A stretch of DNA of 7,424 bases from a virus (taxonomy: Duplodnaviria > Heunggongvirae > Uroviricota > Caudoviricetes), in the IMG/VR virus record IMGVR_UViG_3300028985_000011; one strand, given 5' to 3'. Within the stretch, counting starts at the first letter, position 1; each line of letters opens with the position of its first letter. The notes beneath the pieces were generated by a model. It was not told where the DNA came from and searched no databases. It saw only the letters and a program-made list of their open reading frames with translations. The position numbers and the translations under genes were made by a program. Below are positions 600-6,345 of the stretch, piece after piece.

Positions 600-642
600 A
601 AAAAGGGCGGCAGAGCAGTCACGGAGTAAAACTGATACCGCC
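600..642 (-). terminator. Rho-independent terminator at the 3' end of the DicF-like RNA
   Basis: On minus strand GGCGG (plus 638-642) ... CCGCC (plus 606-610) followed by C then TTTTT (plus 604-600); inner CAGT/ACTG pairing possible within the loop. Confidence 0.5.
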
Positions 643-657
643 AAACGTCACCAGAAA
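600..657 (-). ncRNA. dicF: DicF-like small regulatory RNA with 3' intrinsic terminator
   Basis: Minus-strand sequence TTTCTGGTGACGTTTGGCGGTATCAGTTTTACTCCGTGACTGCTCTGCCGCCCTTTTT matches my recollection of E. coli DicF; ends in GC stem (plus 638-642 / 606-610) plus U5 tract (plus 600-604); located between the upstream ORFs and dicB-like gene as in Qin. Not verified by covariance model. Confidence 0.55.
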
Positions 658-1319: not shown

Positions 1320-1373
1320 NNNNNNNNNNNNNNNNNNNNNNNNNNNNNNNNNNNNNNNNNNNNNNNNNNNNNN
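1320..1373. other. Run of 54 undetermined bases (assembly gap or masked sequence)
   Basis: n characters from 1320 to 1373; flanking minus-strand ORFs are in different frames, so gene structure across it is unresolved. Confidence 1.
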
Positions 1374-1692: not shown

Positions 1693-2100
1693 TTACTGAT
1701 GTTTGTTACGTTTGCGAGCTTCTAGTAGCTCGGTGAATAGGCGATTAAAATTCTCAACGCGGGCACGGAGTTCGCTGATTTGTGCTTGCTGCTCTGATTT
1801 TGGAAGTGCGCGATACAATCGCAACATCTCCAACTCATCTTCCGATAAGTCTAAGGCGCTGTTGAGTGCTACTGGTGGATCTGGTGTTTTATCCTCGTCA
1901 CCAAACAGTATCCAAGTTGGTGAACATTGCAATACCTCAGCCAGGCGATGCAAATTTTGCCCGCGCGGGGCTGTATGGTCGCTTTCCCATAGTGAAATTG
2001 ATGAGCCAGATACGCCAGCGGCTTTGCTTAAATCGTTTTGACTTAAACCAACCTGTTTGCGTCTTTCTCTAATTCGTTGACCTAAAGTTTTCTCGTTCAT
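1693..2100 (-). CDS. dicA: DicA-family HTH (XRE-type) prophage repressor, 135 aa
   Basis: N-terminal HTH (QRIRERRKQVGLSQNDLSKAAGVSGSSISLWE) and the motif LQCSPTWILFGDEDK that I recognise from E. coli DicA (also 135 aa); ATG at 2098-2100 with no obvious Shine-Dalgarno; divergent from a Cro-like gene. Confidence 0.9.
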   Translation of the reverse strand: MNEKTLGQRIRERRKQVGLSQNDLSKAAGVSGSSISLWESDHTAPRGQNLHRLAEVLQCSPTWILFGDEDKTPDPPVALNSALDLSEDELEMLRLYRALPKSEQQAQISELRARVENFNRLFTELLEARKRNKHQ

Positions 2101-2121
2101 ATTTAGATATCTTAATAACCC

Positions 2122-2151
2122 TTGACTTGAGATTCCTTGAATGGTTACTAT
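2122..2151 (+). promoter_or_regulatory. Candidate rightward sigma70 promoter (PR-like) for the dicC-like operon
   Basis: -35 TTGACT (2122-2127), 18-nt spacer, -10 TACTAT (2146-2151); about 27 nt upstream of the dicC-like ATG; CTTGA direct repeats at 2121, 2126, 2136. Confidence 0.5.
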
Positions 2152-2165
2152 TGAGAAAACTCAAC
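2150..2165. promoter_or_regulatory. Operator-like palindrome ATTGAGAAAACTCAAC (right copy)
   Basis: Perfect inverted repeat TTGAG-AAAA-CTCAA (2151-2164) overlapping the -10 and predicted start site of the rightward promoter; 13-nt identity with 1619-1631. Confidence 0.5.
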
Positions 2166-2177
2166 TTTGGAGGGGTG

Positions 2178-2405
2178 ATGTTTAAATCAGACGTAATTAA
2201 TTTTTATGGGACGAAAGCCAAAGTAGCGAAAGCTGCTGGTGTTGATCCATCTGCTGTTTCTCAATGGGGGGAACTGGTTCCTGAAGGTCGCGCGATGCGC
2301 CTGCAAGAGGCATCCGGCGGGGAACTTCAGTACGACCCCAAAGTTTATGACGAATATCGTAAGGCAAAGCGGGCGGGGCGGTTGAACAATGAAAATCACC
2401 CCTGA
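2178..2405 (+). CDS. dicC: DicC/Cro-like small DNA-binding regulator, 76 aa
   Basis: ATG at 2178 preceded by GGAGGGG (2169-2175); product MFKSDVINFYGTKAKVAKAAGVDPSAVSQW...; same length as E. coli DicC and divergent from the dicA-like gene; the upstream extension to 2127 in the track lacks an RBS and overlaps the promoter. Confidence 0.8.
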   Translation: MFKSDVINFYGTKAKVAKAAGVDPSAVSQWGELVPEGRAMRLQEASGGELQYDPKVYDEYRKAKRAGRLNNENHP

Positions 2406-2940
2406 ACAGGTTTGTGAGGCTCTGGATGCCTGGGTATGTCGACCAGGAATGACACAGGAGCAAGCGACGATATTAATCACGGAAGCATTCTGGGCTCTGA
2501 AAGAACGCCCGAACATCGATGTTCAACGCGTCACGTTTAATGATGGCGAGGTTGATCAACGGGCGCTGGGCGTTAACCGGGTGAAGATATTCGAACGCTG
2601 GAAAGCTATCGACACCAGGGATAAGCGGAAAAAATTCACGGCGCTGATTCCGGCAATTATGGAGGCTATCCGAATTAGTGATTTCAGGTTGTATCGTGAG
2701 ATCAGTGATGGAAAAAGCATTACGTACATGATCGCCGGATTAAACAAAGAATATGGCGATGTGGTGGAGTCCGGGCTGCTTTTTGCGGATCCAGCTGTTG
2801 TGGAACGTGAGACTGACGAGCTTATAGAAAAAGCTATTGCTTTCAAGCATGCGTATCGTCAGCAATATCAATATTACTTTGCAGATAAACAAATGTCTGC
2901 CAGGGGTTTGTATGAGTATCGATGCACTACGATGGGCTAA
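2389..2940 (+). CDS. YdaT-like protein (CII-position regulator/toxin family), 183 aa
   Basis: ORF MKITPEQVCEALDAW...; third gene of the rightward operon as in Rac-type racR-ydaS-ydaT arrangements; start overlaps dicC-like stop by 17 nt; family assignment from memory only. Confidence 0.7.
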   Translation: MKITPEQVCEALDAWVCRPGMTQEQATILITEAFWALKERPNIDVQRVTFNDGEVDQRALGVNRVKIFERWKAIDTRDKRKKFTALIPAIMEAIRISDFRLYREISDGKSITYMIAGLNKEYGDVVESGLLFADPAVVERETDELIEKAIAFKHAYRQQYQYYFADKQMSARGLYEYRCTTMG

Positions 2941-3952: not shown

Positions 3953-4406
3953 GCAGCAAATCCGACAGGTCTGCCGCCAGTGCATGGACCGCTGCCGGGC
4001 GGGTGAAACATGGCCTCCGGACCTGGCTGAGTTTGTGGCGCTGATTTCAGAAAGCGGGGCCAATCCATTTGGCCTGACGGTGGATGCTGTGATGGAGGAG
4101 TACCGCCGCTGGCGTGATGAGTCCTGGCGATATGACGGAAGCGACAAATATCCGTGGCCTCAGCCTGTGCTGTACCACATCTGCCTCGAAATGCGTACCA
4201 GAGGGATTGAGCGCCAGATGACGCAGGGTGAGTTAAAACGACTTGCGGAACGGCAACTGACGAAATGGGCAAAGCATGTTGGTAACGGGATGAGTGTTCC
4301 GCCAGTGCGACGACAACTGGAAGGGGCGAAACACCCGCAAGGGCCAACGCCAATTGAACGGCTGAAACAGGAATACGAACGCCGGAAGGCAGCTGGTTTT
4401 ATTTGA
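3741..4406 (+). CDS. Lambda-P-like replication protein (helicase loader), 221 aa
   Basis: Strong RBS AAGGGGG (3728-3734) 6 nt before ATG 3741; internal regions MTEQQIRQV, WPPDLAEFVALI, YPWPQPVLYHICLEM align by eye with lambda P; overlaps the 3' end of the initiator gene by 212 nt in another frame (alternative starts GTG 3813 or ATG 3864). Confidence 0.7.
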   Translation: MQQHQVAPHHGQFRKFGQHVSSGNVKTDLSATETVWKLWELMGEVYSNRWTQKNGAAPSKLWIAQIGAMTEQQIRQVCRQCMDRCRAGETWPPDLAEFVALISESGANPFGLTVDAVMEEYRRWRDESWRYDGSDKYPWPQPVLYHICLEMRTRGIERQMTQGELKRLAERQLTKWAKHVGNGMSVPPVRRQLEGAKHPQGPTPIERLKQEYERRKAAGFI

Positions 4407-4439
4407 ATCTGAGAAACGATTTTGTCGGAGGAAATTTTA

Positions 4440-5210
4440 ATGGAAACCGTATTTGACGCACTGAAAGCAATGGGAAAAGCCACATCGGTAGAACTGGCCG
4501 CGCGACTTGATATCAGTCGTGAAGAGGTTCTCAACGAGCTGTGGGAACTCAAAAGAAATGGCGTCGTTGATAAAACTGGTCACACCTGGTTTCTGGCTGG
4601 CGAAGGTGAATCCCGGGTAACCGAAGAGCGGCCAGTAAAATCTGAAGCACAGGATATGCTGACCGGGGAGGTCGAACAAAAAGTTACCGCAGACATGATG
4701 ATTGAGTTTATCGGTCAGGATGGTGCTAAAACGTGTGAGGAACTGGCGGGTAAGTTCGGCGTCAGTACTCGCAAGGTTGCCTCCACGCTGGCGGTGGTAA
4801 CCGCAATGGGGCGGCTGGCACGCGTTAATCAGAACGGTAAATTTCGTTACTGCATGCCGGGCGATAATTTACCAGCAGAGCCGAAAGCCGCGCTGGTAAC
4901 GGAAAGTGATGGTAAGGCCTTTCCTCAGCCAGCAGGTGCTGCGTTACCAGTCCGGGAAGCCGCAACACAGGAAGAAATTAAAACAGAAACTGTGGCGGAC
5001 ATTGTGCAGCCGTTGCCATCGTTTACCGAAACGCAAGCAGATGAGCTGATTTTTCCGTCCCTTCGCAGGGCAAACCTGGCGCTGCGCAGGGCGAAAAGTG
5101 ATGTTCAGAAGTGGGAGCGAGTCTGCGCCGCGCTGCGGGAGCTGAACAAGCACCGGGATATTGTTCGACAGATTACTGATTCTTCCCGCCGTGTTGTATC
5201 GGAAAAGTGA
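4440..5210 (+). CDS. Hypothetical protein with two tandem winged-helix-like segments (phage nin-region family, possibly DUF1627-like)
   Basis: ATG 4440 with GGAGG (4427-4431) 8 nt upstream; the track start at 4422 is TTG; segments [30 protein letters not shown] and [33 protein letters not shown] look like wH/HTH units. Confidence 0.8.
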
Positions 5211-5225: not shown

Positions 5226-5618
5226 ATGGCAAAAGTATTTACACCAGAAGAGCGGGAAGAAGTGAAGGCGCGCATTGTGGAATTCGTGCGCCTGAGCGGA
5301 CGAGAAACTTTTCGACAACTGGCAGATAAAACGGGTGTCAGTAAGACCGCTATTCGTCGTTTATCTGGTGCGCTTGCGGCCAGTGGTGATGTCTGGCTCT
5401 CTGGTTGCGGGGTATTTCCATCAGAGCAGGCGTATCGCGTATGGCGTAAGACACCGGAGAAGGCTGCTGACCCGACACTGATTCGAAAGTTACCTGACGG
5501 AGAAATACGTCGTTACAACAGACGGCAGAACATAATTTGTCGTGAGTGCCGCCAGAGCGAAGTTATGCAGCGTGTGCTGGCGTTCTATCGGGGAAACTTT
5601 CAGGAGGTGATGGAGTGA
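5226..5618 (+). CDS. Hypothetical winged-helix-like protein, 130 aa (paralogous to N-terminal part of the preceding gene)
   Basis: ATG 5226 with GGAGG (5216-5220) 5 nt upstream; segment ETFRQLADKTGVSKTAIRRLSGALAASGDV resembles the wH units of the upstream protein. Confidence 0.8.
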   Translation: MAKVFTPEEREEVKARIVEFVRLSGRETFRQLADKTGVSKTAIRRLSGALAASGDVWLSGCGVFPSEQAYRVWRKTPEKAADPTLIRKLPDGEIRRYNRRQNIICRECRQSEVMQRVLAFYRGNFQEVME

Positions 5619-5911
5619 GGGTCAGAGTTTATATTGCCGGTCCAATGACGGGATATGAAAATTTCAACCGTGAGGCGTTTCACAAGGCGGAAGAGGAACT
5701 GAAACGGGAAGGGCATACCGTCTTAAACCCGGCAGTACTTCCGGACGGGCTGACACAGCCGCACTACATGGATATTTGCATGGCAATGATTCGTTGTGTG
5801 GATGCGATTTACATGCTGAATGGCTGGCAGCGGTCAGCGGGCGCTAAGGCAGAGCTGGCACTGGCGGAGAAACTGGGGCATGCAGTGATTTATCAGGAGG
5901 TGGCTCAATGA
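5615..5911 (+). CDS. Small nucleoside 2-deoxyribosyltransferase-like protein (DUF4406-like), 98 aa
   Basis: GTG start at 5615 overlapping the upstream stop (GTGA) with AGGAGG (5602-5607) 7 nt upstream; motif VYIAGPMTG...NF...F...LNPA...GW..S.GA.AELALA typical of the NDT-like Rossmann family; the track's longer ORF from 5546 overlaps the upstream gene and is not favoured. Confidence 0.75.
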   Translation: MRVRVYIAGPMTGYENFNREAFHKAEEELKREGHTVLNPAVLPDGLTQPHYMDICMAMIRCVDAIYMLNGWQRSAGAKAELALAEKLGHAVIYQEVAQ

Positions 5912-6345
5912 GAGAGGTTAACTATGAGGCGCTTCGTGAGGCAGCACAAAACTATCAGTCGACGCTGGCGTGGTATCAGGCTATCCCGGACAGCCCAAAT
6001 GCTGAACGGGATTGTGATGCGGCTCTTGCTGCGTTTAAGCGTCACATCCGTCATCGGGAAGCGGATATTATCGCTGATTTGCTGGATGGACTGGAAGAAG
6101 CAAAATCACAACTCAAAGAGCAGCGTGAGTATTACGAAGGCGTTATCTCTGATGGGAGCAAGCGTATTGCTGAACTGGAAGCGCGGGAAGTTCAATTACC
6201 GACTCGCTACGACCTTCGATATGGACACCCGATAAATGCAGATGAGCGACAAGTCATGATACCTAAAGAAAATGGCAGTTGGCTTTACCTGATTGACCTA
6301 GAACACGCATTACGCGTCGCTGACATTCGCATCAAAGGAGAGTGA
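5908..6345 (+). CDS. Hypothetical protein, 145 aa, predicted helical/coiled-coil
   Basis: ATG 5908 overlapping the upstream stop (ATGA), AGGAGG (5895-5900) 7 nt upstream; no family recognised. Confidence 0.8.
   Translation: MREVNYEALREAAQNYQSTLAWYQAIPDSPNAERDCDAALAAFKRHIRHREADIIADLLDGLEEAKSQLKEQREYYEGVISDGSKRIAELEAREVQLPTRYDLRYGHPINADERQVMIPKENGSWLYLIDLEHALRVADIRIKGE

What the first reader, a model, noticed from the sequence alone, without database searches (positions are those of the whole stretch)
5615..5911. Small NDT-like (nucleoside 2-deoxyribosyltransferase-fold) protein in the early operon
The 98-aa product carries the YIAGPM...LNP...GW..S.G...E motif of the NDT-like Rossmann family, which is related to nucleotide-binding and nucleotide-processing domains. 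A phage-encoded member expressed early could act on nucleotides, modified bases or nucleotide second messengers; this is a hypothesis for a possible anti-defence or nucleotide-salvage role, not an established function.
Basis: inference. Interest (0 to 1): 0.55.

Follow-up and report, generated by a model that had tools for sequence, protein, structure and literature searches.

The report
Small prophage DUF4406 nucleotide-glycosidase-like protein
This is a real 98-residue early gene of an E. coli lambdoid prophage that belongs to the already catalogued but biochemically untested DUF4406 family, a stripped-down relative of enzymes that cut the base off deoxynucleotides, so it is an ordinary, widespread accessory gene rather than a new kind of system.

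Summary
The ORF at 5615-5911 (+) is real. It has a GTG start and an AGGAGG ribosome-binding site, it overlaps both neighbouring genes, and its variation is mostly at third codon positions. The protein matches Pfam DUF4406 (E=5.7e-38). The gene is 100% identical in DNA to one annotated in RefSeq as 'DUF4406 domain-containing protein', and it occurs in 1210 of 5426 complete E. coli genomes and in 526 phage records.

A confident AF2 model (pLDDT 90.8) has the nucleoside 2-deoxyribosyltransferase (NDT)/DNPH1/MilB/TIR fold. The catalytic Glu (E80) is kept in 99% of 128 diverse relatives and S74 in 100%.
- Ser74 replaces the Asp that binds the 5'-OH in true NDTs, as in DNPH1, which acts on nucleotides.
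- Tyr6 is the residue linked to 2'-deoxy specificity.
- The third triad residue (Asp/Asn) is Cys55 here, and the C-terminal lid segment is missing.

My best reading (about 0.45) is a minimal N-glycosidase, or deoxyribose-5-phosphate transferase, acting on dNMP-type substrates and expressed with the replication genes. I found no evidence for an anti-defence role and no functional study of the family. The family is already known and its function is open. Interest is low to moderate.

The parts
5615..5911 (+). Coding sequence of the 98-aa DUF4406 protein (GTG start, TGA stop).
   Evidence: The DNA is 100% identical to a CDS annotated 'DUF4406 domain-containing protein' in E. coli 042 and many other genomes (protein WP_001266130.1). 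Variation is biased to third codon positions.
5602..5607 (+). Shine-Dalgarno sequence AGGAGG, 7 nt upstream of the GTG start. It lies inside the end of the upstream DUF977 gene.
   Evidence: Read directly from the sequence. The start codon overlaps the upstream stop (GTGA at 5615-5618), which suggests translational coupling (inference).
5630..5632 (+). Codon for Tyr6, the beta1 tyrosine of the NDT-type triad. In NDT and DNPH1 this residue hydrogen-bonds the catalytic Glu and is linked to 2'-deoxy specificity.
   Evidence: Tyr in 84% and Phe in 13% of 128 diverse relatives. It aligns with DNPH1 Tyr24 and with the YIAGP motif of TbNDT. Its role is taken from PMC11204291 and PMC12884076.
5639..5653 (+). 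Codons for the G9-P-M-T-G13 loop between beta1 and alpha1. This is the predicted 5'-phosphate/ribose-binding loop, the counterpart of GSIRGG in DNPH1.
   Evidence: G9 and G13 are invariant or nearly so, and P10, M11 and T/S12 are strongly conserved. Aligned with DNPH1. The phosphate-binding role is inferred.
5777..5779 (+). Codon for Cys55, at the position of the triad Asp/Asn (DNPH1 Asp80, TbNDT Asn).
   Evidence: Two independent alignments place it there. Actinophage DUF4406 members have Asp in this column in the motif Y-x-R-R-D-L. Across 128 relatives the column is Cys 64% and Asp 16%.
5834..5836 (+). Codon for Ser74. It occupies the position of the 5'-OH-binding Asp of true NDTs and matches Ser98 of DNPH1.
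   Evidence: 128 of 128 conserved. It aligns with the Asp of TbNDT 'EPDCGTAFE' and with DNPH1 Ser98. The retron Ec86 NDT-like effector has the same S-x5-E spacing, S100/E106.
5852..5854 (+). Codon for Glu80, the predicted catalytic nucleophile.
   Evidence: 127 of 128 conserved. It aligns with the catalytic Glu of TbNDT and with DNPH1 Glu104. PDB 8qhq carries Gln at that DNPH1 position.
5226..5618 (+). Upstream overlapping gene, DUF977 / 'Ren-like' helix-turn-helix protein. This is context only and not an obligatory partner.
   Evidence: Pfam DUF977 E=2.4e-41. RefSeq annotates the equivalent 393-nt CDS. It is the upstream neighbour in only 39 of 89 related loci.
5908..6345 (+). Downstream overlapping gene, Ead/Ea22-like (ATGA overlap with the DUF4406 stop). 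Context only.
   Evidence: Pfam Ead_Ea22 E=6.6e-12. It is the downstream neighbour in 44 of 86 related loci.

Best explanation
The gene encodes a minimal enzyme of the nucleoside deoxyribosyltransferase (NDT) superfamily, Pfam DUF4406. It consists only of the four-stranded Rossmann-like core.

**Proposed mechanism (inferred).** The protein binds a 2'-deoxyribonucleotide-type substrate. The Gly9-Gly13 loop and Ser74 hold a 5'-phosphate. Glu80, oriented by Tyr6, attacks C1' and breaks the N-glycosidic bond. The base is released, and the deoxyribose-5-phosphate goes to water (DNPH1-like hydrolysis) or to another base (DmtZ-like transfer).

**Proposed role (inferred).** The gene is transcribed with the replication genes from the rightward early promoter. 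It would trim or reshape the deoxynucleotide pool during lytic growth, for example by removing non-canonical dNMPs.

**Shown:** the ORF, family membership, the fold, and residue conservation and equivalences.

**Inferred:** substrate class, chemistry, oligomeric state, timing of expression and biological role.
For: **Family.**
- DUF4406 E=5.7e-38.
- PHROG 355 E=3e-48.

**Fold.**
- AF2 pLDDT 90.8.
- Foldseek against PDB: TbNDT E=4.4e-5, followed by other NDTs, MilB, PA1492 and DNPH1.

**Sequence homology.** The family profile matches TbNDT at E=2.6e-5 over residues 1-98.

**Catalytic residues.**
- E80 99%, S74 100%, Y6 84% (Phe 13%) of 128 relatives that share no more than 50% identity with each other.
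- Y6, S74 and E80 align with DNPH1 Y24, S98 and E104 (DNPH1 sequence verified against PDB).

**Substrate class.**
- NDTs use Asp/Asn for the 5'-OH, while the hydrolases that act on nucleotides have uncharged small residues there (PMC12884076).
- A Tyr hydrogen-bonded to the Glu goes with 2'-deoxy specificity in NDT and DNPH1, whereas TIR NADases have Phe or Ala (PMC11204291).

**Context.**
- In unrelated phages the gene sits in early, replication or nucleotide-metabolism modules. Examples are GTE7 (DnaN, then DUF4406, RusA and a pyrophosphatase), Lizalica (dNMP kinase, exonuclease, DUF4406) and ZoeJ, MD8 and Vibrio phage Her.
- Two BFVD proteins named for a dATP/dGTP diphosphohydrolase domain carry a DUF4406-like domain.
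- In the window the gene overlaps both neighbours. A single weak terminator-like site (4381-4397) lies between the promoter-like site at 2122-2151 and the gene.
Against: - No member of DUF4406 has been assayed, and I found no functional paper.
- No DUF4406 structure is solved.
- The triad Asp/Asn is Cys55 in this clade, so catalysis may be weak, different or absent.
- The protein ends just after beta4. It lacks the roughly 45-residue C-terminal segment that in NDT and DNPH1 closes the site and supplies residues from the partner subunit (target lengths 125-165 against 98; PMC12884076).
- The alignment to DNPH1 is weak on its own (hhalign E=0.023, probability 2%).
- The putative pyrophosphatase fusions rest on database names only. 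None appeared among 32 long relatives scanned with Pfam or 10 scanned with PHROGs.
- Neighbouring genes are not conserved, so context gives no specific pathway.
Confidence: 0.45

Rival explanations
1. It is a counter-defence enzyme. An early phage N-glycosidase would destroy a nucleotide-derived immune signal (Thoeris ADPR isomers, CBASS or Pycsar cyclic nucleotides). Alternatively it would remove nucleotides poisoned by host defence, such as dUMP or dIMP from deaminase systems.
For: - The gene lies in variable early accessory regions (nin-like and ea-like) of temperate phages, where accessory genes cluster.
- The sub-version in which it removes defence-generated abnormal dNMPs is chemically compatible with the best explanation.
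Against: - No hit to any PADLOC model, and no literature link.
- Tyr6 is the residue associated with 2'-deoxy specificity. NAD-cleaving TIR domains have Phe or Ala there (PMC11204291). The known immune signals are ribonucleotide derivatives.
- The gene is also found in lytic actinophage replication modules next to polymerase accessory genes. That fits housekeeping nucleotide metabolism better.
Confidence: 0.15
2. It is a true nucleoside 2-deoxyribosyltransferase, as PHROG 355 and many GenBank records name it. It would swap bases between deoxynucleosides for salvage.
For: - PHROG 355 is annotated this way, as are many phage records.
- The best sequence and Foldseek hits are NDTs from T. brucei and Leishmania.
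- One actinophage member (Lizalica gp27) just reaches the PF05014 cut-off, 29.3 against 28.8 bits.
Against: - The window protein scores 14.4 bits against the PF05014 cut-off of 28.8.
- The Asp that holds the 5'-OH in NDTs is an invariant Ser in the family.
- The C-terminal third of NDTs is absent. It carries base-binding and partner-subunit residues.
- The database names are inherited, not tested. Other records name equally pure DUF4406 proteins 'deoxycytidylate deaminase' or 'MazG-like pyrophosphatase'.
Confidence: 0.15
3. It is a non-catalytic small nucleotide-binding or DNA-binding protein: a sponge, a regulator or an accessory factor of replication or recombination. It would keep the NDT core only as a ligand-binding scaffold.
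For: - The canonical Asp/Asn of the triad is lost (Cys55) in this clade.
- The lid segment is missing, which leaves an open site.
- The protein is very small (98 aa).
- The fold is shared with non-enzymatic binders such as SLOG, DprA and SIS domains.
- The NDT-like domain of the retron Ec86 effector contacts DNA.
Against: Near-absolute conservation of Glu80, Ser74 and Tyr/Phe6 across relatives sharing no more than 50% identity with each other is what is expected of a catalytic site. Actinophage members keep the full Tyr-Asp-Glu triad.
Confidence: 0.12
4. It is a host-takeover or toxic effector that depletes a host nucleotide pool, like the NDT-like effector of retron Ec86 that depletes adenine derivatives. 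This would favour phage development or exclude competitors.
For: - NDT-like effectors with the same S-x5-E signature deplete adenine derivatives in retron Ec86.
- The gene is co-transcribed with early genes (inference).
Against: - It lacks the C-lobe and the filament-forming partners of retron effectors.
- No toxin-antitoxin-like partner gene is conserved next to it.
- It occurs in 22% of complete E. coli genomes with up to 4 copies per genome, with no sign of a linked immunity gene.
Confidence: 0.08

Closest known systems
Pfam DUF4406 (PF14359); RefSeq WP_001266130.1 'DUF4406 domain-containing protein' of E. coli lambdoid prophages
   Same: The gene here is 100% identical in DNA to the annotated CDS and lies in the same gene order, DUF1627, DUF977, DUF4406, Ead/Ea22. 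It matches the full length of the profile.
   Different: Nothing differs. This is the same protein. The family has no assigned function.
DNPH1/Rcl, 2'-deoxynucleoside 5'-phosphate N-hydrolase (PDB 4fyh, 8qhq, 2khz)
   Same: - The beta1 Tyr, the S-x5-E signature and the Gly-rich beta1-alpha1 loop align.
- From these I predict the same substrate class, 2'-deoxy with a 5'-phosphate.
   Different: - The protein has 98 residues against a DNPH1 core of about 145.
- It lacks the C-terminal segment that completes the dimeric active site.
- Asp80 of DNPH1 corresponds to Cys55.
- Sequence similarity is marginal (hhalign E=0.023).
Nucleoside 2'-deoxyribosyltransferases (PF05014; T. brucei 2a0k, Leishmania 6qai, L. 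leichmannii 1f8x)
   Same: - These are the best sequence and Foldseek matches.
- The YIAGP start is shared, and the catalytic Glu falls in the same column.
   Different: - The match is below the Pfam cut-off.
- The 5'-OH-binding Asp is Ser.
- The triad Asp/Asn is Cys.
- The C-terminal base-binding region is missing.
DmtZ, the NDT-like dAMP hydrolase / deoxyribose-5-phosphate transferase of Z-genome actinophages (PMC12884076)
   Same: - It is a phage-encoded NDT-superfamily enzyme that acts on a dNMP.
- It has a non-Asp triad residue (Asn77).
- Uncharged residues sit at the 5'-phosphate pocket.
   Different: - DmtZ is about 145 aa with a lid Trp from the partner subunit.
- It has no Pfam model.
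- It is linked to DutZ and PurZ0 genes, which are absent from this window.
PA1492 / DUF1937 (PDB 1t1j)
   Different: It belongs to a different Pfam family, with 18% identity. Its PDB entry names it only 'hypothetical protein', so the match adds no mechanism.
TIR domains / ThsB and the retron Ec86 NDT-like effector
   Different: - No sequence-profile hit to TIR.
- Tyr6 replaces the Phe or Ala of NADase TIRs.
- No assembly-forming or sensor partners are present.

Membership tests
DUF4406 (PF14359) | Score above Pfam's gathering threshold over the whole domain. | tested here: met
   129.7 bits against a cut-off of 22, E=5.7e-38, profile positions 2-91 of 91.
DUF4406 (PF14359) | Family-wide conserved positions are present: Y/F6, G9, G13, N18, F22, P39, P43, G45, Y51, W71, S74, G76, E80. 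| tested here: met
   All are present in the window protein. Conservation was measured over 128 relatives sharing no more than 50% identity with each other.
NDT superfamily (NDT/DNPH1/MilB fold) | Flavodoxin-like alpha/beta core superposable on solved members. | tested here: met
   [not shown]
NDT superfamily (NDT/DNPH1/MilB fold) | Catalytic Glu nucleophile at the N-terminus of the helix after the third strand. | tested here: met
   E80 aligns with the Glu of TbNDT and with DNPH1 E104. It is 99% conserved.
NDT superfamily (NDT/DNPH1/MilB fold) | Complete Tyr / Asp(Asn) / Glu catalytic triad (PMC12884076). | tested here: not met
   Tyr6 and Glu80 are present, but the Asp/Asn column holds Cys55. 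Actinophage DUF4406 members do have Asp there.
NDT superfamily (NDT/DNPH1/MilB fold) | Dimer, or trimer of dimers, with the active site completed by the partner subunit's C-terminal segment. | not testable with these tools
   Only monomer prediction was available. The sequence ends 5 residues after beta4, so the segment itself is absent.
Nucleoside 2'-deoxyribosyltransferase proper (PF05014, EC 2.4.2.6) | Score above the PF05014 gathering threshold. | tested here: not met
   14.4 bits against 28.8, E=0.042.
Nucleoside 2'-deoxyribosyltransferase proper (PF05014, EC 2.4.2.6) | Asp/Asn six residues before the catalytic Glu, which binds the 5'-OH of a nucleoside. | tested here: not met
   The Asp of TbNDT 'EPDCGTAFE' aligns with Ser74. 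Ser is invariant in the family. The role of the residue is taken from PMC12884076.
Nucleoside 2'-deoxyribosyltransferase proper (PF05014, EC 2.4.2.6) | Base-exchange activity between deoxynucleosides. | not testable with these tools
   This needs a biochemical assay.
DNPH1/MilB-type nucleotide N-glycosidases | Small uncharged residue (Ser) at the 5'-phosphate pocket, six residues before the Glu. | tested here: met
   S74/E80 correspond to DNPH1 S98/E104.
DNPH1/MilB-type nucleotide N-glycosidases | Significant sequence relationship to DNPH1, MilB or BcmB. | tested here: inconclusive
   hhalign against human DNPH1 gives E=0.023 and probability 2%. The profile against PDB gives BlsM E=0.69 and BcmB E=0.95. 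The structural match is clear.
DNPH1/MilB-type nucleotide N-glycosidases | Hydrolysis of dNMP or NMP to a free base plus (deoxy)ribose 5-phosphate. | not testable with these tools
   This needs a biochemical assay.
TIR-domain NADases / Thoeris ThsB | Sequence-profile match to TIR families, and Phe/Ala rather than Tyr next to the catalytic Glu. | tested here: not met
   [not shown]
Known anti-phage defence or anti-defence proteins | Match to a curated defence model, or a published anti-defence family. | tested here: not met
   PADLOC gave 0 hits. Literature searches found nothing. No dedicated anti-defence library was available.

The most novel reading that the evidence does not exclude
The enterobacterial and Vibrio clade of DUF4406, which includes this protein, may be a specialised early phage enzyme. 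It has Cys55 in place of the triad Asp and an open, lid-less site. It might clear abnormal deoxynucleotides made by host nucleotide-modifying defences, for example dUMP or dIMP from dCTP, dCMP or dATP deaminase systems. Alternatively it might act on a bulkier glycosidic substrate that a closed NDT site cannot admit. Either way it would be a new type of counter-defence or pool-sanitising enzyme that is widespread in temperate phages.
Probability: 0.1. Interest if true: 0.7.

Novelty: already known. Interest (0 to 1): 0.3.

Why it matters
DUF4406 is very common. It occurs in about 22% of complete E. coli genomes, about 1% of sequenced phage records and more than 18,000 sequence clusters. It is always found in early, replication or accessory regions of phages, yet no member has been assayed.

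The residue pattern found here gives a concrete, cheap biochemical hypothesis: a 2'-deoxy, 5'-phosphate substrate, a Glu80 nucleophile and an unusual Cys55. Testing it would assign a function to a large phage protein family. It would also correct inconsistent database names ('nucleoside 2-deoxyribosyltransferase', 'deoxycytidylate deaminase', 'MazG-like pyrophosphatase', 'hydrolase').

For this window itself the finding is ordinary. It is a catalogued accessory gene of a Qin/Rac-type lambdoid prophage.

Tried and rejected
- **Longer ORF from GTG 5546 (121 aa).** Rejected. It has no ribosome-binding site, it overlaps the DUF977 gene, and homologues and RefSeq start at 5615.
- **Single-sequence PDB search.** Nothing relevant.
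- **NCBIfam and PADLOC.** No model matched; no hit.
- **Domain fusions as a functional clue.**
  - 32 long relatives scanned with Pfam and 10 with PHROGs showed only DUF4406.
  - The long PHROG profile lengths do not reflect an identifiable second domain.
  - A recurrent N-terminal extension in 9 metagenomic proteins has no known family.
  - Two BFVD entries named for a dATP/dGTP diphosphohydrolase domain could not be retrieved for checking.
- **GenBank names suggesting fusions.** 'Deoxycytidylate deaminase' (Kepler gp54), 'MazG-like pyrophosphatase' (Lizalica gp27) and 'hydrolase' (Nadeem gp65) are all proteins of 121-128 aa with only a DUF4406 domain. I rejected them as evidence.
- **Conserved gene neighbours.** None is obligatory. 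Ead/Ea22 lies downstream in 44 of 86 loci. Upstream, DUF977 occurs in 39 and another HTH protein in 23 of 89 loci.
- **Asp53 as the triad Asp.** This was my first manual guess. I rejected it because Asp53 is only 44% conserved and two alignments put the triad column at residue 55.
- **Local similarity of VLNPAxLPDGLS to the glucokinase regulatory protein.** E is about 0.2, which is not significant.
- **Literature.** Searches for DUF4406, DUF1937, PF14359, NDT-like, DNPH1 with bacteriophage, and nucleoside deoxyribosyltransferase with phage found only incidental mentions.
Full report
**1.

The window carries a 297-nt ORF at 5615-5911 on the + strand. It begins with GTG, 7 nt after an AGGAGG at 5602-5607. 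Its start overlaps the stop of the upstream gene (GTGA) and its stop overlaps the start of the next gene (ATGA).

The ORF list also offers an upstream GTG at 5546. Three things argue against it. The N-termini of 36 homologues line up with the 98-aa form. RefSeq annotates exactly this 297-nt CDS. The longer form would run through the DUF977 gene.

LNP ... GW..S.G...E) is present at residues 6-11, 37-39 and 70-80. The frame is under purifying selection. Among 19 distinct full-length alleles in related loci, 168 of 225 nucleotide differences are at third codon positions, and synonymous codon changes outnumber non-synonymous ones 138 to 68.

**2. What it is**

The protein is a textbook member of Pfam DUF4406:
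- Pfam E=5.7e-38, full profile coverage.
- PHROG 355 E=3e-48.
- Sub-threshold hits on the same stretch to DUF1937, DUF7768 and the NDT model PF05014 (14.4 bits against a cut-off of 28.8).

From my own knowledge these families share one Pfam clan. Here the link is supported by an actinophage DUF4406 protein that passes both the PF14359 and PF05014 cut-offs.

The gene is 100% identical in DNA to a CDS annotated 'DUF4406 domain-containing protein' (WP_001266130.1) in E. coli 042 and many other strains. It is found in 1210 of 5426 complete E. coli genomes, with up to four copies per genome.

The window is the immunity and early region of a Qin/Rac-type lambdoid prophage. In order it carries:
- a DicA-like repressor;
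- YdaS/Cro-like and YdaT/CII-like genes;
- a DnaT-domain initiator;
- a P-like helicase loader;
- DUF1627, DUF977, DUF4406 and Ead/Ea22-like genes.

A promoter-like site sits at 2122-2151, next to the divergent repressor. On the + strand between that site and the gene the scan found a single weak terminator-like site, at 4381-4397. 'Early operon' is therefore a sound inference, but expression was not shown.

**3. How large and how phage-bound the family is**

- A profile of 37 homologues finds 18,172 clusters (representatives at 50% identity) at E<=1e-3, and 6,472 at E<=1e-10.
- tblastn finds the family in 526 of 50,697 phage records. The hosts include Arthrobacter, Vibrio, Gordonia, Mycobacterium, Pseudomonas, Aeromonas and Rhizobium.
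- At least 567 IMG/VR stretches encode a relative.

Wherever I looked, the gene lies in early, replication or accessory regions:
- the nin-like PR region here and in E. coli 042;
- the ea-like region of an Edwardsiella prophage, next to RdgC, Ead/Ea22, Eai and an exoribonuclease-like gene;
- just before the integrase in a Vibrio prophage;
- between DnaN and RusA, near a pyrophosphatase, in lytic Gordonia phage GTE7;
- near a dNMP kinase and an exonuclease in Arthrobacter phage Lizalica;
- in Mycobacterium phages ZoeJ, Cosmo and Courthouse, Pseudomonas phage MD8 and Vibrio phage Her.

The immediate neighbours are not conserved. Ead/Ea22 lies downstream in 44 of 86 loci. Upstream, DUF977 occurs in 39 and a different HTH protein in 23 of 89 loci. 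The protein therefore most likely works on its own.

**4. Structure**

AlphaFold2 with the 37-sequence alignment gives a confident model (mean pLDDT 90.8, pTM 0.85). It has four strands and four helices and ends five residues after beta4.

- Foldseek against the PDB puts NDTs from T. brucei (E=4.4e-5), Leishmania and Chroococcidiopsis first, then MilB, PA1492 and DNPH1.
- No DUF4406 member has a solved structure. The best PDB sequence match of the family profile is T. brucei NDT at E=2.6e-5, collinear over residues 1-98.

**5. The active site read from conservation and alignments**

Over 128 relatives that share no more than 50% identity with each other, the conserved positions are:

| Residue | Conservation |
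|---|---|
| Ser74 | 100% |
| Glu80 | 99% |
| Phe22 | 100% |
| Tyr51 | 98% |
| Gly9, Pro39, Pro43, Gly76 | about 97-98% |
| Tyr6 | 84% (Phe 13%) |

The alignment to T. brucei NDT puts Glu80 on the catalytic Glu. It puts Ser74 on the Asp six residues earlier (EPDCGTAFE).

A profile alignment to human DNPH1, whose sequence I checked against PDB entries, is weak (E=0.023) but collinear. It gives Tyr6 = Tyr24, Ser74 = Ser98 and Glu80 = Glu104. The DNPH1 structure 8qhq carries Gln at residue 104.

Two published rules then apply:
- NDTs that take nucleosides use Asp/Asn to hold the 5'-OH. Members that take nucleotides have small uncharged residues there (PMC12884076). The retron Ec86 NDT-like effector likewise has S100/E106.
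- A Tyr hydrogen-bonded to the catalytic Glu is typical of NDTs and DNPH1 and goes with strict 2'-deoxy specificity. NAD-cleaving TIR domains have Phe or Ala there (PMC11204291).

Together these point to a 2'-deoxy, 5'-phosphorylated substrate, that is a dNMP or something like it.

**6. Two departures from the canonical enzymes**

First, both alignments place the third triad residue (Asp in most members, Asn in TbNDT and DmtZ) at Cys55. Actinophage DUF4406 proteins have Asp in that column, in the motif Y-x-R-R-D-L. Among the 128 relatives the column is Cys 64% and Asp 16%. I first assigned this role to the neighbouring Asp53, but it is only 44% conserved.

Second, the protein lacks the roughly 45-residue C-terminal segment of NDT, DNPH1 and DmtZ. 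That segment closes the pocket and contributes residues from the partner subunit (lengths; PMC12884076).

Either the oligomer closes the site differently, or the site is open. I could not model oligomers.

**7. Mechanism and rivals**

My best explanation (confidence about 0.45) is a minimal N-glycosidase, or deoxyribose-5-phosphate transferase, acting on dNMP-type substrates. Glu80 is the nucleophile, Tyr6 orients it, and Ser74 plus the 9-13 loop hold the phosphate. The gene would be expressed with the replication genes to adjust or sanitise the deoxynucleotide pool.

The rivals are:
- a counter-defence enzyme (0.15);
- a true nucleoside deoxyribosyltransferase, as many records name it (0.15);
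- a non-catalytic binder (0.12);
- a pool-depleting takeover effector like the retron NDT effector (0.08).

Nothing specific supports the counter-defence idea. PADLOC gave no hits, the literature gave nothing, and Tyr6 argues against ribonucleotide signals. A version in which the enzyme removes abnormal dNMPs made by host deaminase defences remains compatible with the best explanation.

**8. Leads that went nowhere**

- I found no fused domains among the long relatives.
- GenBank names that hinted at deaminase or MazG fusions are mis-annotations of pure DUF4406 proteins.
- Two BFVD entries named for a dATP/dGTP diphosphohydrolase domain carry a DUF4406-like domain. This would be a useful Rosetta-stone link to dNTP pyrophosphatases, parallel to the DmtZ-DutZ fusion. 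I could not retrieve their sequences to confirm it.
- Six literature searches found only incidental mentions of DUF4406 and no assay of any member.

**9. Verdict**

The fold and family assignment and the conserved Glu are supported. The functional speculation is untested, and its anti-defence branch has no support.

The protein and its family are already in the databases, so this is not new. The modest added value is the residue-level reading: Tyr6, Ser74 and Glu80 point to a dNMP-type substrate, Cys55 replaces the triad Asp, and the lid is missing. That turns 'DUF' into a directly testable hypothesis. Interest: 0.3.

Noticed in passing
window 605-656, minus strand: Full-length match to DicF sRNA (Rfam RF00039, 76.7 bits against a gathering score of 48, E=4.2e-16). 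This fits a Qin/Rac-type dicB-operon region left of the DicA-like repressor.
   Followed up: partly
window 1320-1373: A run of 54 N bases (masked or unsequenced) interrupts the minus-strand ORF 1261-1608.
   Followed up: no
window 1693-2940: Immunity switch of the DicA / YdaS / YdaT type rather than lambda CI/Cro. It comprises an HTH_3 repressor on the minus strand (1693-2100), a promoter-like site at 2122-2151, a Cro/YdaS-like ORF ending at 2405, and a YdaT-toxin-like / CII-like protein at 2389-2940.
   Followed up: partly
window about 5165: Mosaic breakpoint. The PPompW and Stx2a-converting phages match the window at 94% only up to position 5165, the end of the DUF1627 gene. The DUF977, DUF4406 and Ead block that follows is a different module in those phages.
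   Followed up: no
window 4422-5210: The DUF1627 protein gives weak PADLOC hits to CARF/Csa3-type regulators (E=1e-5 to 3e-5), confined to winged-helix regions. This is probably generic wHTH similarity.
   Followed up: no
L082 3977-4345; L083 4004-4369; L093 3001-3387: GenBank product names 'deoxycytidylate deaminase' (Arthrobacter phage Kepler gp54), 'MazG-like pyrophosphatase' (Lizalica gp27) and 'hydrolase' (Gordonia phage Nadeem gp65) are attached to proteins of 121-128 aa. Their only Pfam domain above the cut-off is DUF4406 (Lizalica gp27 also just reaches PF05014), so the names are likely mis-annotations.
   Followed up: yes
L093 3384-4094; L078 upstream ORF; Brachyspira prophage (PMC8845278): DNA methyltransferase genes lie directly next to DUF4406 in several unrelated phages. 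Examples are Nadeem gp66 downstream, an NPPY-motif protein upstream in L078, and an N-6 methylase listed beside it in a Brachyspira prophage. I did not test whether this exceeds chance.
   Followed up: no
BFVD entries A0A6J5LQ71 (216 aa) and A0A6J5S4N9 (462 aa): Viral proteins named 'dATP/dGTP diphosphohydrolase N-terminal domain-containing' contain a DUF4406-like domain (41% and 33% identity, TM 0.86 and 0.82). They may be fusions of a dNTP pyrophosphatase with DUF4406. The sequences could not be retrieved here.
   Followed up: partly
proteins P0149, P0154, P0164, P0166, P0172, P0189, P0196, P0200, P0202: Nine metagenomic DUF4406 proteins share a homologous N-terminal extension of about 100-200 residues. 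P0164 and P0200, scanned with both Pfam and PHROGs, and six others scanned with Pfam only, gave no match for it. It may be a real fusion partner of unknown function or a gene-calling read-through.
   Followed up: partly
window residues 36-47 of the DUF4406 protein (5720-5755): The family-specific loop VLNPAxLPDGLS resembles the segment FVLNPAIGPEGLS of the glucokinase regulatory protein. The E-value is about 0.2, so this is not significant, and I note it only as a curiosity.
   Followed up: no
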